Assembly: GCA_963514005.1 (NCBI GenBank)
Contig: OY740788.1
Coordinates: forward strand, 16,864,001 to 16,928,000
Source: Raja brachyura
Taxonomy: Eukaryota
Direction of reading: 5' to 3'
DNA: 64,000 nt
In this document: positions 15,995 to 57,376 of the stretch, piece after piece
Position numbering within the stretch: position 1 is the stretch's first letter
Layout of the letters: each line of letters opens with the position of its first letter
Translations under genes and position numbers: made by a program
The notes under the pieces: generated by a model
What the model was told of the DNA's origin: nothing
What the model saw: the letters and a program-made list of their open reading frames with translations, nothing else
Databases searched by the model: none

Positions 15995-16047
15995 GGGGTG
16001 GAAGATTGCAACCTTCACGTGGTTTGCTCTGTTTCAATGAATGCAAT
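15995..16047 (+). ncRNA. HDV/CPEB3-like self-cleaving ribozyme fold (probably inactivated, catalytic C read as T)
   Basis: P1 GGGGTGG/TTGCTCT, P2 ATTGCA/TGCAAT, P3 ACC/GGT, L3 TTCACGT. Confidence 0.7.
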
Positions 16048-16134
16048 CAACCTGGTGTGCACAATCAAATAAGATCAAATAGAACAAGTTGTCCTACAAC
16101 TTTGGGCTGTGCACGCCATACGCAAGTAGAAGAA
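15995..16134 (+). mobile_element. ~140-nt short retroelement with HDV-like ribozyme head, 3' stem-loop and (AAG)n tail (copy A)
   Basis: TSD GCACTCATGGTT(G) at 15983-15995 and 16135-16147; same 5' end as the copies at 27473 and 33632(-). Confidence 0.85.
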
Positions 16135-16738
16135 GCACTCATGGTTGTATTTATCATTACTCTGAGTATACTGTTCACTGTGTCAGCTTCATGTCTACAA
16201 GCAATTTCATTAAATTCTAGTGTATATGACAGTTTTTCTTTAGCCCAGAACATGATTGTTTCATTTTCTGATGTGTGAAGAATTTTAAGGTGTCCTCGAT
16301 ATATCGAAAGGGCGATGAAGATGCAAATTGGCATCTTTTCATGGAACTGGCATTTTATCAATACCAAGTTACAAGGTATTTTTAATTTTTTTTTGTTATC
16401 AAGTTTACCTTAATTTTGCAAAATAACAATGAAAAACTGAGAAGTGCCGCTGAATCTCTGCAAAGATTGCCATTTTCATTTGGGCCACCTGAGGTCGCTG
16501 TCGCTGTGCATTCCTGCTTGTTGAAGCCTGAATCAGTTTTCTGAGCAGCACAACTGAACTTTACACCTGCTACACTACCTAATACGGGCAAATTGTGGCG
16601 ATAAACATATAGAAACAGTTGATATTATCCCACCTAGACAATTTTGAAGTTTCGATGTAGCTAACAAAAGAATCCAAAAAGATTCTCCACAAGTATTGAA
16701 TGACAAGTGCTGATGTTTGGACAATAATGGGCTAATCA

Positions 16739-27454: not shown

Positions 27455-27602
27455 GGGGGGGGGGGGGGGGGGGGGGTGGAAGATTGCAACCTTCACGTGC
27501 TCCACCTTGTTTCGACTAATGCAATCAACTCGACGTGCACAAACTGAAGGTCAAATAGAACAAGTTGTCCAACAACTTTAGGGTGTGCACGCCACACGGA
27601 AG
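27455..27602 (+). mobile_element. HDV-ribozyme-headed short retroelement (copy B), nested in a Penelope-type repeat (27415-27660)
   Basis: 9-bp TSD AAGCGGGGC (27446-27454, 27603-27611); ribozyme fold 27473-27525 with candidate catalytic C at 27516; extra poly-G 5' of P1. Confidence 0.85.
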
Positions 27603-27719
27603 AAGCGGGGCAGGCAACATCTCTGGAGAGATGGGGACGTTTCGGGTTGAGTCCCTTATTCTGCTTTTGTTTCTTTGTTTCTTTTTCTCGCTCTCTGTGT
27701 TTCCAGCTGTAACATGATG

Positions 27720-27964: not shown

Positions 27965-29113
<1,149 letters not shown>

Positions 29114-33507: not shown

Positions 33508-33632
33508 CTTGTTGCATATGGCGTGCACAGCCTAAAGTTGTTGGACAACTTGTTTTATTTGCTTGTGCACGCCAGGTTGGTTGCATTTGTCGAAACAGGG
33601 CAGAACACGTGAAGATTGCAATCTCCCACCCC
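33508..33632 (-). mobile_element. HDV-ribozyme-headed short retroelement (copy C)
   Basis: Reverse complement reads GGGGTGG GAG ATTGCA ATC TTCACGT GTT CTGCCCT GTTTCGAC AAA TGCAAC...TGGCGTGCACA...TGTGCACGCCA; imperfect TSD AT(C/T)ATTGAT. Confidence 0.82.
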
Positions 33633-52818: not shown

Positions 52819-54543
52819 ATGGATAAGAGGAGTACGGGCCGCAGGATGTCCGAAAGGAGTCGCCGGCCACCTATCCTGGAGCCCTCTTCAACGGCAGCAC
52901 CCGCTAGACGGGCCGGGAAAAAGGCGCGTAAGTCGGGGAGCCCTGTATTCACAGGACCCGACCCACCGACACAGCTGAGCACTAGCGGGGATCCCGCAGA
53001 GCAGGAAGTCGGTACGGCGCCGGAGCAGGTAGACCCTGACTCCATTTCGTTCACGTGCTGCTGCACGGTCCTTCTCCCTGAGCCCTCGTGGCAGAGCCAG
53101 GGATAGAGCTCATCAACCTGGCCCTTTACGGGCAGAGGTTTCACCAGAGGCCGCTAGATTGCGGACTGGTGGATCATCGAGACCCGAGTCCACTGGCAGA
53201 CCAGGGAGGGCCAGTGTAGACTCACCACCCAGTAGGACCAGGAAGAGTCGCACAGGTGGAGTCTCGCCACGGTCACCGCGTCCCCCGTTGGCGGCAGGAC
53301 GGGACCGTACGCCATCTGGGTCCAGAATAAGGACAGTCGGCAAGCCCGCGCGGATGTCGGGTCACCACGCTGCGGCGTTGGGTGCCGACCTCTCACCGCA
53401 TTTGCCCTTAGAGGCAGCCGGGCCTAGCTCAGCCAAAAGGAGGCGTATGAGCAGATCCACGTGGGAGTCGTTCAGTTTCGCTGAGGCGGCTGGAAGCGAC
53501 ATTTCATCTCGGCACCGAAATTACCTCGATGAGGTACGGGCCGATGATAGGAGCCTCAGAAGTTCCTTCGGGCATGAGGACTCTGACCGCCCGTTCTCGC
53601 ATGACGAAGGGCGCATTGACAGGATGGAGAGGATGATGGAACAAATCCTGCAGCAAAATCAAAGGCGGGAAACATTCAGTTCCAGGGACTCATGGATATA
53701 TCCCCATCATCAATGGATAGCATGAGGCAGCCAGAAGAAGAGGAGATCTTGGTCCACGCACCAGTAGCACCTGAGGTCCCTCAGGAGGAACTCCTGGACG
53801 TAGCAGCCAAGTTTGCGTTACCCGAATCATCGGGACAACCCCTAAATACCAAACTGGCTGCTACCATTGATTTCCTCACAAACCATCAGCTACAGGAGCA
53901 GGTCCTTGCGGAGGCCATGAACAGACACAAGGCACCGGGTAATTGCAACTCCCTTAATGTGCCTATTGTGAACATGCCTATTTGGGGCAATATTAGCCCG
54001 GGCATTAGAGCACAGGAAGTGAAGTTACAAAGGATCCTGAAACTGCTCACTTCTGGGATTACCGCTTTTGCGAGGTCGATGGACAGTGTGGATTTGAACA
54101 CCGAGCAAGAGGATGCTCTGGCACTGCTATGCAACACGCATGAGATAAATGCGTTCAGGAAAAGCATTATCAAGCGTACATTAAACCCCAAATTTGCGGG
54201 GCTACGCAGAGCACCCCCAACACCACCCAGACAGCTATTCGGAGAAGACCTCCCAAAGCAGGTCAAGGTTTTGCATGACCATGCTAAGACAGTGGGTCTT
54301 ATGAGGTCACACACCTTGACCAGACAAACAGCCAGGAAAACACCATTCTTCAGGCCACGAGGTCAAACCGAAAGGCCAGCAAGGACCTACGTTCCAGCGC
54401 CTCCGCAATATCAGCAGCCTCAACAGCCCAGGCCTTTTTTAGGGCAAGGCCCGCAGCGGCCAGCATGGAAAATGTGGACTCCGCATTACCAGCACAACCC
54501 AGCACCTCCACGTCCCACCAAACATGTCAGGGACCACCGATAA
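52819..54543 (+). pseudogene. DIRS gag-like ORF1 (frameshifted pieces 52819-53106, 53159-53725, 53692-54543)
   Basis: Position in the element; low-complexity N-terminus, coiled coil (RIDRMERMMEQIL), P.NC..L.VP.VN..IW and LFGEDL motifs recalled from DIRS gag. Confidence 0.75.
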
Positions 54544-54545
54544 CC

Positions 54546-56399
54546 ATGAAGGTAAGGCGGTCTGGATTTCATGCACTTGCATGTCTAACCTCACATGTTG
54601 GGGGTAGACTACGGTTCTTTAAGGAGGCATGGGAAACCATCACTTCAGATGAGTTTATCTTACAAAGTATTCAAGGCCATGAGATTGAGTTCATAAATGG
54701 TCAAATTCCTCCACCTCAGCATATGCCGAATCGCAAATTTGCACTTTTCAGCAAGGAAACAGCAGTAGGCTATGCTGAAATCTTGAGACTACAAGGAAAA
54801 GGCGTGATAGAAAGAACTATACATGAACCAATTGAATTTGTATCTAACATATTCACAAAAACCAAGAAAGATGGAGGATGTCGGGTTATTATTAATCTGA
54901 CCCATTTGAATACTTTTGTAAAATATACCCATTTCAAAATGGACACATTCGAAACAGCCAAATCTTTGATTTCTGAGGGCTGCTTTATGGCATGCATTGA
55001 TTTAAAAGATGCATACTATTCAGTATCCATTCAGAAACATCACAGGAAGTTCTTGAAGTTTACCTGGATGGATCAGCTTTGGCATACAAAGCTTTGCCTA
55101 ATGGGCTTACCACAGCCCCCAGATTGTTTACTAAATTACTCAAGCCAGTGCTGGCAACACTGAGGAGGCAAAATCACATGGTTATGGCTTATCTGGATGA
55201 TATCCTAATCATTGGAAATACTCTGGAATCAGCAAAATTGGCAGTCTCAGCCACTGTGGAAATATTTCAAAAAATGGGATTCATTATCCATCCAGATAAA
55301 TCGAAGTTCTGTCCTTCACAGATCATGGATTATCTGGGATTCACGGTGGATTCCAATCGCATGATGGCCACCATACCAGCTAACAAAATTGGGGATGTCA
55401 TTCAAGCATGTAAGAATCTGGTCTGCGCCAGTATACCATCAATTAGACAAACTGCTAAGGTGATTGGGAAAATCGTAGCAGTTTTTCCAGCTGCTCAATT
55501 CGGACCTTTGCATTATCAAAATTTGCAAAGATCCAAGATTTCAGCGTTAAAATTGAACGCTGGACATTTCAATAGACCTATGCAGCTGCCTCTTAAGGCA
55601 AAAATTGAGTTACAATGGTGGATTGATAATATCCAAAACTCATTTAAACCCATCATTGTGCCTCGTCCGGTGGTATACTTACAAACAGACGCAAGCTCCC
55701 ATGGCTCCCATAAATTATTTGGAGATGCTAGGAGCATTTCACGGACTTAGAGCTTATTGATCAAACTTTACTGACACTCATGTCCGTCTCCAAATAGATA
55801 ATACCACTGTGGTGGCATATCTAAATCATATGGGCGGTACCAAGTCAATTTCATGTGATGAATTGGCAAATACAATTTGGCTCTGGTGCATACAACCGAA
55901 TATTTGGATTTCAGCTACCTATTTACCAGGTAAGCTCAATACAGTGCCGGACACCAGGTCACGGAAATTTAATGACAACATCGAGTGGATGTTAAATCCT
56001 CAAATATTCGCAAAAATTACAGCCAAATTTGGTAAACCGGATATTGACCTTTTTGCGTCACGGTTGAACCATCAGGTACCAACATACGTATCATGGGAGC
56101 CAGATCCTGGGGCAATGGCGATGGACGCTTTCTCGCTAGACTGGGGGAAATGGTTTTTCTATGCATTTCCTCCATTTTGCCTCATCAGTCGGGTATTGCG
56201 GAAAATCCAGTTAGATGCTGCTAAAGGCATTCTTATCATACCCGACTGGCCTACGCAGCCATGGTATCCGGTGGTCCTTGATATGATCAGTCAACCATGG
56301 GTCCTCTTAGAGGGTTGTCCACAACTGGTGACGAACCCTGTTTCAGGGGAACTACATCCCTGCCATAGTCACTTAAAATTATTGGCTTGCAGGTTCTGA
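54546..56399 (+). pseudogene. DIRS pol: reverse transcriptase, RNase H and Dam-like N6-adenine methyltransferase domain (frameshifted, short RNase H deletion)
   Basis: IDLKDAYY, LPNGL..APRLFTK, AYLDDILI, LQTDAS, IDNTTVVAYLN..GG, DIDLFASRLN, YAFPPF. Confidence 0.92.
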
Positions 56400-57376
56400 A
56401 CAGACCACTACTGCAGTATGGTCTATCATCAAGGACAATGGATACAATTGGAGCATCATGCAGGGAGTCCACAAGACGGTAATATCTAACGCATATCAGG
56501 AAATGGGAAACCTACTGCGGCCGCTCCAACATTGCATATGACTCCGTTACTATCACAGATGTGCTGGAATTCCTTGCGGGGTTGCATCATGACGAACACC
56601 TCAGCTACAGTGCCATCAACAGCGCCAGGAGTGCGCTATCATTCTACCTCAATATTGAGGTAGGATCCAATAAGCTGGTGTCCAAACTTATGCGGGGAAT
56701 ATTTAATTCCAATCCGCCAAGACCTCGTTACAACGTCACCTGGGATATTGGGATAGTACTAACCCTGCTCAGGACGTGGTCGCCCATGGAAAGGCTTGAA
56801 TTGGACAAACTCACCCTGAAGCTGGTGATGTTATTGGCACTTACTTCAGTGCAAAGGGTACAGACACTTCACAAGGTCAAGATTGACAGAATGATCTCTA
56901 CCCCAGAAAAAGTAATCTTCTTTGTTGATGAATTACTTAAGCAGCATAGACCTGGATACACAGGGCTGCAGCTGGTGTTTCCAGCATACCCCGCTGATGC
57001 TAGGCTATGTTTAGCCACCCATATCCGCCACTATATAAGAGTGACGCGGAAATTAAGGGGAATGGAAAAATATCTGCTAATCAGCCACAAAAAACCTCAC
57101 CATAGAGTGACAGCACAGATGATCTCCAGATGGCTCAGGATCGTCTTGAACGAAGCAGGTATTGACACTAATGTCTTTAAATCCCATTCCACCAGGGCTG
57201 CATCGACGTCCGCGGCAAAGGTCATGGAGGTGCCCATGGACCATATTCTTGCCACAGCGGGATGGGCCAGAGAAGCCACCTTTCAACGGTTTTATAATAA
57301 ACCTGTTACCGCTCCTGTATTGTTCGCAGAGGCCGTGCTGAATGCGGGTCAAGAGCATACAGATTCTCCCCAGTGA
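56393..57376 (+). pseudogene. DIRS tyrosine recombinase (one in-frame stop at 56480-56482)
   Basis: Catalytic residues: QRVQTL (R), HSTRAAS (HxxR), AGW, FQRFYNK (Y); N-terminal YGLSSRTMDTIGASCRESTRR*YLTHIRKW is in the same frame. Confidence 0.93.

What the first reader, a model, noticed from the sequence alone, without database searches (positions are those of the whole stretch)
15995..16134. Ribozyme-headed short retroelement: a ~140-nt SINE-like family whose 5' end is a minimal HDV/CPEB3-like ribozyme
Seen: three copies (15995+, 27473+, 33632-) each have a TSD and an (AAG)n-like tail, and the family sequence begins at the same GGGGTGG in all three. The consensus head GGGGUGG-RAG-AUUGCA-ACC-UUCACGU-GGU-CCGCCCU-G-UUUCGA-C-GAA-UGCAAU (~53 nt) maps onto the nested double pseudoknot: P1 7 bp starting with G.U, P2 AUUGCA/UGCAAU, P3 ACC/GGU, a UUCG mini-P4, and a J4/2 C followed by NAA. 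No canonical tRNA A/B boxes are visible. Established: L3 UUCACGU and the CCCU-GU context match the mammalian CPEB3 ribozyme as I recall it, and HDV-like ribozymes process the 5' ends of R2/RTE-type retrotransposons, cleaving just before G1. Inference: the element has no Pol III promoter. It cuts itself out of host read-through transcripts, which explains the uniform 5' end, and borrows LINE machinery through its 3' stem-loop. I know of no such family described from elasmobranchs but cannot check. P1 substitutions across copies stay pairable (TTGCTCT, CCACCTT, CTGCCCT), while single copies are CpG-decayed (copy A has lost the catalytic C).
Basis: partly seen in the sequence, partly recalled or inferred. 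Interest (0 to 1): 0.92.

Follow-up and report, generated by a model that had tools for sequence, protein, structure and literature searches.

The report
Ribozyme-headed mini retroposon, probably Vingi-driven
This 140-base jumping element, present in over 11,000 copies, begins with what looks like a stripped-down self-cutting RNA; full-length Vingi-type jumping genes in the same genome carry related heads, and one is so like the mammalian CPEB3 ribozyme that it suggests where that ribozyme came from.

Summary
Confirmed as a real family. At least 11,159 genomic copies; target-site duplications in 82 of 91 full copies, mostly 11-12 nt. The 54-nt head is an HDV/CPEB3-type fold without P4: an intact copy's three best Rfam hits are the three HDV-like families, all below cut-off; 49 of 90 copies fit a structural descriptor, 0 of 5,000 shuffles. 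All three window copies are damaged. 15 of 20 copies picked by their 3' half start at positions 1-4; 5 are truncated. There is no two-sided covariation inside the family. So it is most likely a Vingi-mobilised non-autonomous element like NARTc or the R2 SIDEs; the direct parent was not found and cleavage is untested. One Vingi 5' end scores 56.3 bits on Rfam's mammalian CPEB3 model (cut-off 35), a lead on that ribozyme's origin.

The parts
15995..16134 (+). Copy A of the element (subfamily A), CpG-decayed
   Evidence: 40 of 40 scored genomic hits at 94-100% identity
15995..16048 (+). HDV/CPEB3-type ribozyme head without P4: P1 15995-16001/16024-16030, P2 16004-16010/16042-16048, P3 16011-16013/16021-16023, L3 16014-16020, 5-nt loop 16033-16037 in place of P4
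16038..16038 (+). Position of the catalytic C (element position 44); T in this copy, so this copy is predicted dead
   Evidence: C in 75 of 90 copies, T in 15
16053..16118 (+). 3' stem enclosing an A-rich linker and an inner hairpin
   Evidence: z -3.2 for copy A, -4.2 for L072, only -1.35 for subfamily B copy L034
16119..16134 (+). Terminal motif and (AAG)n tail, resembling Vingi 3' ends of this genome
15983..15994 (+). Left target-site duplication of copy A (12 nt), abutting G1
16135..16146 (+). Right target-site duplication of copy A
27473..27605 (+). Copy B (subfamily B); P3 broken at position 28; preceded by an expanded G run
33508..33632 (-). Copy C; P3 and one P2 pair broken, short deletion in the linker, 9-nt duplication

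Best explanation
The element is a non-autonomous, non-LTR retroposon mobilised in trans by Vingi-type LINEs. Its first 54 nt are a Vingi-type HDV-like ribozyme that has lost P4. A source copy is transcribed inside a longer RNA; the ribozyme cuts just before G1 and gives the RNA a fixed 5' end (inferred); a Vingi endonuclease/reverse transcriptase recognises the short terminal motif and (AAG)n tail and inserts it by target-primed reverse transcription with an 11-12 nt duplication (inferred from shared hallmarks). About a quarter of insertions are 5'-truncated. Shown: the family, its ends, the fold's fit, and related heads on Vingi LINEs. Inferred: cleavage, the transcript source and the partner.
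For: Duplications of 8 nt or more in 82 of 91 full copies against 8 of 270 mismatched-flank controls; no gap before G1 in 67 of 83. Copies chosen by the 3' half only: 12 of 20 start at position 1, 3 at 2-4. Rfam CPEB3 E 0.0028, HDV 0.72, HDV-F-prausnitzii 1.4, all in register. Descriptor: 49 of 90 copies, 0 of 5,000 shuffles, no independent hit in 282 kb of flanks. The non-CpG head differences between subfamily majorities fall at positions 8 (J1/2) and 45 (after the catalytic C), both unpaired. Of 12 Vingi N-terminal hits whose upstream DNA I fetched, Rfam gave HDV-like matches for 6 (L131, L132, L133, L135/L140, L138/L139, L142/L145); L134 and L137 belong to the L132 family by BLAST. Against L145, all 17 P1-P3 pairs hold with 10 two-sided changes, and J1/2 length, L3 and J4/2 are the same. 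A 3,107-nt Vingi has an 11-nt duplication abutting its own G1. 7 of 8 sampled Vingi 3' ends finish in AC(A/T)CG plus an AAG-type tail, like subfamily B. A second short family (L075:~877-1045, -) is a plain internal deletion of one of these Vingis.
Against: No direct parent: 0 of 12 Vingi upstream regions carry this head, and no LINE with its 3' stem was found. The shared 3' motif is only 5-6 nt, and subfamily A differs in it. All Rfam scores of the element are below gathering cut-offs (20.1 against 35). No two-sided covariation within the family, and the head is not significantly more conserved than the body between subfamilies (4 of 54 against 12 of 77, p 0.19). Whole-element folding is unremarkable (z 0.14; the tool cannot form pseudoknots). 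P1.1 has one canonical pair and J1/2 is 2 nt; very short J1/2 linkers cut activity in another ribozyme (PMC4908430). The label 'Vingi' rests on domain layout, length and recall, not on a named reference.
Confidence: 0.72

Rival explanations
1. Hybrid element: a Vingi-type ribozyme head joined to the 3' end of a different I-group LINE (Nimb-like), which supplies the enzymes, as in the R2/R1 hybrid SIDEs.
For: A Nimb/I-like LINE here ends in an outer stem, inner hairpin, short spacer and AAG-like tail, the same layout as the element's 3' half (3 of 3 copies; layout read by eye). Vingi 3' UTRs sampled are about 20-30 nt and lack the stem. Hybrids are described (PMC3414825 abstract).
Against: No sequence match to that LINE beyond the tail. 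Terminal motif and duplication length match Vingi. The Nimb duplication length was not measured.
Confidence: 0.14
2. The head is a dead or weak relic of a Vingi ribozyme. The fixed 5' end comes from an internal promoter in the same bases (as Pr77 is both promoter and ribozyme in L1Tc/NARTc), and loss of P4 marks decay.
For: Rfam scores are low; no excess constraint on the head between subfamilies; Pr77 is a dual element (PMC3383444, abstract start).
Against: All 17 pairs, G1.U36, C22-G37 and the catalytic C are the majority state across 90 copies, after 10 two-sided changes relative to L145, which needs selection on the fold. P4-less natural ribozymes are active (theta preprint).
Confidence: 0.1
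3. An ordinary Pol III SINE with a degenerate tRNA head, or an RTE-derived SINE.
For: SINE-like size, no run of four T in either subfamily majority, weak A-box (6 of 9) and B-box (5 of 7) look-alikes. RTE fragments are present in the genome.
Against: The box match is at chance level; no tRNA; no tRNA, 5S or 7SL hit in Rfam; the one RTE 3' end seen has a different tail and no match.
Confidence: 0.04

Closest known systems
NARTc/RIME and SIDER elements of trypanosomatids (L1Tc/ingi clade, Pr77 ribozyme)
   Same: Short, non-coding, HDV-like ribozyme at the exact 5' end, mobilised by an Ingi-group LINE; NARTco and several SIDER ribozymes cleave in vitro (PMC4035085 passages).
   Different: Pr77 is 77 nt and has P4; here 54 nt without P4, in a 2.7-Gb animal genome, over 11,000 copies, no parent found.
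R2 SIDE and R2/R1 hybrid SIDE of Drosophila
   Same: 5' ribozyme plus a LINE-type 3' end, released from a co-transcript (PMC3414825 abstract).
   Different: Those are rare and site-specific in rDNA; this family is dispersed and abundant.
Bipartite non-autonomous Vingi derivatives (Vingi-1_EE derivatives, SINE2-1_ACar)
   Same: Vingi is one of four clades known to give ORF-less bipartite elements (PMC5786205 section 23).
   Different: [quoted passage not shown]
Minimal HDV-like ribozymes (drz-Mtgn, theta ribozymes)
   Same: HDV-like core lacking P4 (bioRxiv 10.1101/2023.06.13.544163).
   Different: Those are nearly all in gut phages beside tRNAs; that survey of human, mouse and protist genomes reported no eukaryotic hit.
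Mammalian CPEB3 ribozyme (Rfam RF00622)
   Same: Same lengths and register for positions 1-38, identical L3, one-pair P1.1 context, CGAA in J4/2.
   Different: CPEB3 has P4 and is a single intronic copy; P1-P3 sequences differ. A Vingi head in this genome (L145) is far closer to CPEB3 than the element is.

Membership tests
HDV-like ribozyme | Nested double-pseudoknot helices P1 (7 bp), P2, P3, P1.1 in the right order | tested here: met
   17 of 17 pairs in intact copies; 49 of 90 copies against 0 of 5,000 shuffles
HDV-like ribozyme | G1 in a wobble pair, L3 motif, catalytic C followed by NAA | tested here: met
   G1.U36 in 86 of 90, C44 in 75 of 90; lost in window copy A
HDV-like ribozyme | Covariation supporting the fold | tested here: inconclusive
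   None within the family; 10 two-sided changes in 17 pairs against Vingi head L145, a small hand-parsed set
HDV-like ribozyme | Mg2+-dependent self-cleavage before G1 | not testable with these tools
   Only contigs were available; no read starts
Rfam CPEB3 / HDV families | Score at or above the gathering cut-off | tested here: not met
   20.1 against 35, 19.2 against 50, 14.4 against 44
Minimal (P4-less) HDV-like ribozyme | P4 replaced by a short loop | tested here: met
   5 nt between position 38 and the catalytic C, against 15-46 in Vingi heads L145, L139, L131
Non-LTR retroposon inserted by TPRT | Target-site duplication, simple-repeat tail, some 5' truncation | tested here: met
Bipartite non-autonomous Vingi | 5' part homologous to a Vingi 5' end | tested here: inconclusive
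   Same ribozyme type and core but no identical parent in 12 regions
Bipartite non-autonomous Vingi | 3' part homologous to a Vingi 3' end | tested here: inconclusive
   Only the last 5-6 nt and the tail are shared
Bipartite non-autonomous Vingi | Insertion signature like autonomous Vingi | tested here: met
   11-nt duplications at 2 of 2 Vingi copies checked; mode 11-12 for the element
tRNA-derived SINE (SINE2) | tRNA-like head with A and B boxes | tested here: not met
Theta ribozyme | Phage location next to a tRNA | tested here: not met
   Dispersed repeat in an animal genome; head motif absent from viral and metagenome contigs
Existing Repbase/Dfam family | Match to a deposited consensus | not testable with these tools
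   No such library on hand

The most novel reading that the evidence does not exclude
Vertebrate Vingi LINEs carry a family of 5' HDV-like ribozymes that gave rise both to this element, an active P4-less ribozyme amplified to over 11,000 copies in an animal genome, and to the mammalian CPEB3 ribozyme, which would be the retained 5' end of an ancient Vingi insertion. L145 matches the Rfam CPEB3 consensus at 36 of the first 41 and 12 of the last 14 positions, with two two-sided P2 changes, 73 nt upstream of a Vingi endonuclease match (counts read from the printed alignment).
Probability: 0.45. Interest if true: 0.86.

Novelty: new variant of a known kind. Interest (0 to 1): 0.67.

Why it matters
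The kind of element is known, but three points would be new if they hold. First, a P4-less HDV-like ribozyme working in an animal; these are reported almost only from gut phages. Second, Vingi as a ribozyme-bearing clade, which would explain why it throws off short derivatives and bears on Vingi-based gene-insertion tools that keep the native 5' UTR (PMC13708176 passages). Third, a testable origin for the mammalian CPEB3 ribozyme: a Vingi head scores well above that family's cut-off, and the human genome holds a Vingi fossil (X12_LINE; PMC5753468). Thousands of possibly self-cleaving units in introns could also affect host transcripts; that was not examined.

Tried and rejected
Rfam on the window and on copy A: no ribozyme hit. 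Minimum-energy fold of the whole element: uninformative. RTE partner: the one RTE 3' end found has another tail. Ingi with RNase H: a PF00075 search returned 150 hits; 4 of 4 sampled were endogenous-retrovirus pol, dropped. PF14529 search: 4 sampled were one Nimb/I-like and three CR1-group elements with no head match; the Nimb 3' end matches in layout only. Head motif in metagenome and viral contigs: 0 matches. A variant tail motif gave 87 matches that I did not inspect. The 40 head-selected hits were not inspected. Laying contigs of 4 runs showed the family in all 4 but no parent continuation and no start sites; RNA status is a guess for 3. MAFFT alignment of heads slipped out of register, so pairs were parsed by script; that parse mis-set P2 of L132 and P1 of L139 and L075, which I left out of the 10-of-17 count. 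Head-versus-body constraint: not significant. No names for the Vingi-type proteins in the collection or PDB.

Full report
The observation. The window holds exactly three copies, at the stated places. A 19-nt word from head positions 10-28 occurs 11,159 times, the reversed control 0 times, a lower bound on copy number. Public runs of seven coded organisms (A-G) hold 67-100% of the sampled words; 9 of the 20 holding rows may be the source of this DNA.

It is a retroposon. From the 90 loci full-length copies were recovered. 82 of 91 have a duplication of 8 nt or more, against 8 of 270 controls with mismatched flanks; lengths peak at 11-12; in 67 of 83 the duplication abuts G1. These copies were chosen as best full-length hits, so I tested the 5' end separately on 20 of the 40 hits found with the 3' half alone: 12 start at position 1, 3 at positions 2-4, and 5 at 10, 17, 25, 28 and 66; upstream flanks are unrelated. 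The base before G1 is T in 53 of 90 against 29% background (p 2e-9); I read this as an endonuclease preference (inference). Two subfamilies differ at 17 aligned columns; the sampled copies are 3.3% and 1.4% from their majorities, biased low by selection.

The head. A near-intact copy (L030) gives Rfam's CPEB3, HDV and HDV-F-prausnitzii models as its three best of five hits, in register and with P4 missing, all below cut-off. A generic descriptor fits 49 of 90 copies at G1, 0 of 3 window copies, 0 of 5,000 dinucleotide shuffles, and nothing independent in 282 kb of flanks (one duplicate locus, L084, was left out of the 90). The head is not significantly more conserved than the body between subfamilies (p 0.19), though two of the four head differences are CpG sites enriched by searching with decayed copy A, and the other two sit at unpaired positions 8 and 45. 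Pol III boxes (consensus recalled) match at chance level and ARAGORN finds no tRNA.

The partner. RTE, Ingi-with-RNase-H and Nimb candidates failed or matched in layout only. One copy (L054) sits inside an old LINE with a C-terminal cysteine-histidine motif. That fragment led to a 984-aa single-ORF relative with endonuclease and reverse transcriptase and no RNase H, on a 3,148-nt contig. I call this Vingi from layout (single ORF, no RNase H: PMC13708176), length (Vingi-2_Gav is 3,128 nt: PMC5786205) and recall; no tool named it. The genome has at least 153 matches to the C-terminal part. Of 8 sampled 3' ends, 7 finish in AC(A/T)CG plus an AAG-type tail after a very short UTR; subfamily B ends the same way and subfamily A differs by a base. 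Of 107 N-terminal matches I fetched the upstream DNA of 12 (extended in 74, 88). Six give HDV-like Rfam matches, two more belong to one of those families, L144 shows a cut-off core by eye, and L130, L136 and L143 show none. A complete 3,107-nt copy has an 11-nt duplication abutting G1. Against L145, found by its ORF and not by its fold, the element keeps all 17 P1-P3 pairs through 10 two-sided changes. None of the 12 is the direct parent. A second short family does have its parent here: 36 of 40 top hits to the L139 head stop at query position 83-85, and the one copy in hand (L075) joins that head to the same Vingi's 3' end in about 170 nt.

Mechanism. Most likely a source copy is transcribed within a longer RNA, cuts itself before G1, and is reverse-transcribed into a new site by a Vingi protein acting on the terminal motif and tail (0.72). 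Cleavage, transcript source and partner are inferred. Rivals: a hybrid using a Nimb-like 3' end (0.14); a dead head whose fixed end comes from an internal promoter (0.10); an ordinary SINE (0.04). The role of the 3' stem is unexplained: it is strong in subfamily A and weak in B.

The CPEB3 lead. L145 scores 56.3 bits on RF00622 (cut-off 35, E 1.1e-14), starting at G1; L139 and L131 score 28.1 and 24.1 and share CPEB3's P2. It rests on one copy; I did not measure its duplication or copy number, exclude the host CPEB3 intron, or compare other LINE clades, and shared fold constraints explain part of the likeness.

What is known. Ribozyme-headed short retroelements are described: NARTc and SIDERs (PMC4035085, passages), R2 SIDEs (PMC3414825, abstract), reviewed in PMC6765202 (passages). 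PMC5786205 (passages and section 23) lists Vingi among clades with bipartite derivatives but not among those with ribozymes. P4-less ribozymes are reported almost only from phages (theta preprint, passages and section 5). PMC8233481 (passages) has no occurrence of 'origin' or 'transpos'; PMC10919898 (passages) gives no origin in what I saw. Ten searches showed no paper describing this family, a Vingi ribozyme or a Vingi origin of CPEB3; most listings were read by title and abstract start only. Three key papers were not held (PMC3002237, PMC3308841, PMC3256349), I read no supplements, and Repbase, Dfam and patents were out of reach; any of these may already hold the family or the Vingi ribozyme. 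Earlier notes of this scan report similar ribozyme-headed retroelements in other genomes, unchecked; none matched this sequence.

Verdict. Real; a new variant of a known kind. Interest 0.67, carried by the P4-less ribozyme at high copy number and by the Vingi-CPEB3 link.

Noticed in passing
L145:8-71 (-) = G000:C14:60648168-60648231: 5' end of a Vingi-type LINE scoring 56.3 bits on the mammalian CPEB3 ribozyme model, above its cut-off of 35.
   Followed up: partly
L075:~877-1045 (-); hits: A second ribozyme-headed short family, about 170 nt, an internal deletion of the L138/L141-type Vingi; 1,437 first-look candidates.
   Followed up: partly
L131, L132-L134, L137, L139, L140, L144: At least four further Vingi-type families with distinct full HDV-like heads.
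   Followed up: partly
L125-L128: The 3' UTR of one Vingi family holds a 9-10 nt word identical to element positions 9-18 (the 5' strand of P2) in 4 of 4 copies. Unexplained; may be chance.
   Followed up: no
L123:68-120: A copy of the element starts about 35 nt after a Vingi 3' end, on the same strand.
   Followed up: no
L054: A copy inserted antisense into an old Vingi-type LINE with a TAA-type tail.
   Followed up: yes
L115, L119-L121: Two-ORF Nimb/I-like LINE (label recalled) with a 3' stem, inner hairpin and AAG-like tail.
   Followed up: partly
L111-L114; hits: Several endogenous-retrovirus families, many copies with open frames of 1,176-1,769 aa. Observed only.
   Followed up: no
window 27965-29113 (+): Long coding exon resembling CCDC85 (name recalled), about 360 nt downstream of copy B.
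   Followed up: no
window 53620-57373 (+) and 10711-12751: DIRS/Ngaro-like element with reverse transcriptase and tyrosine-recombinase frames (label recalled), with a partial second copy.
   Followed up: no
L092, L097, L098: 5'-truncated copies carry extra G runs or a short head-like piece at the junction.
   Followed up: no
run X20 record 25; run X15: A joint from element position 68 back to position 1: a tandem partial copy seen in two runs.
   Followed up: no
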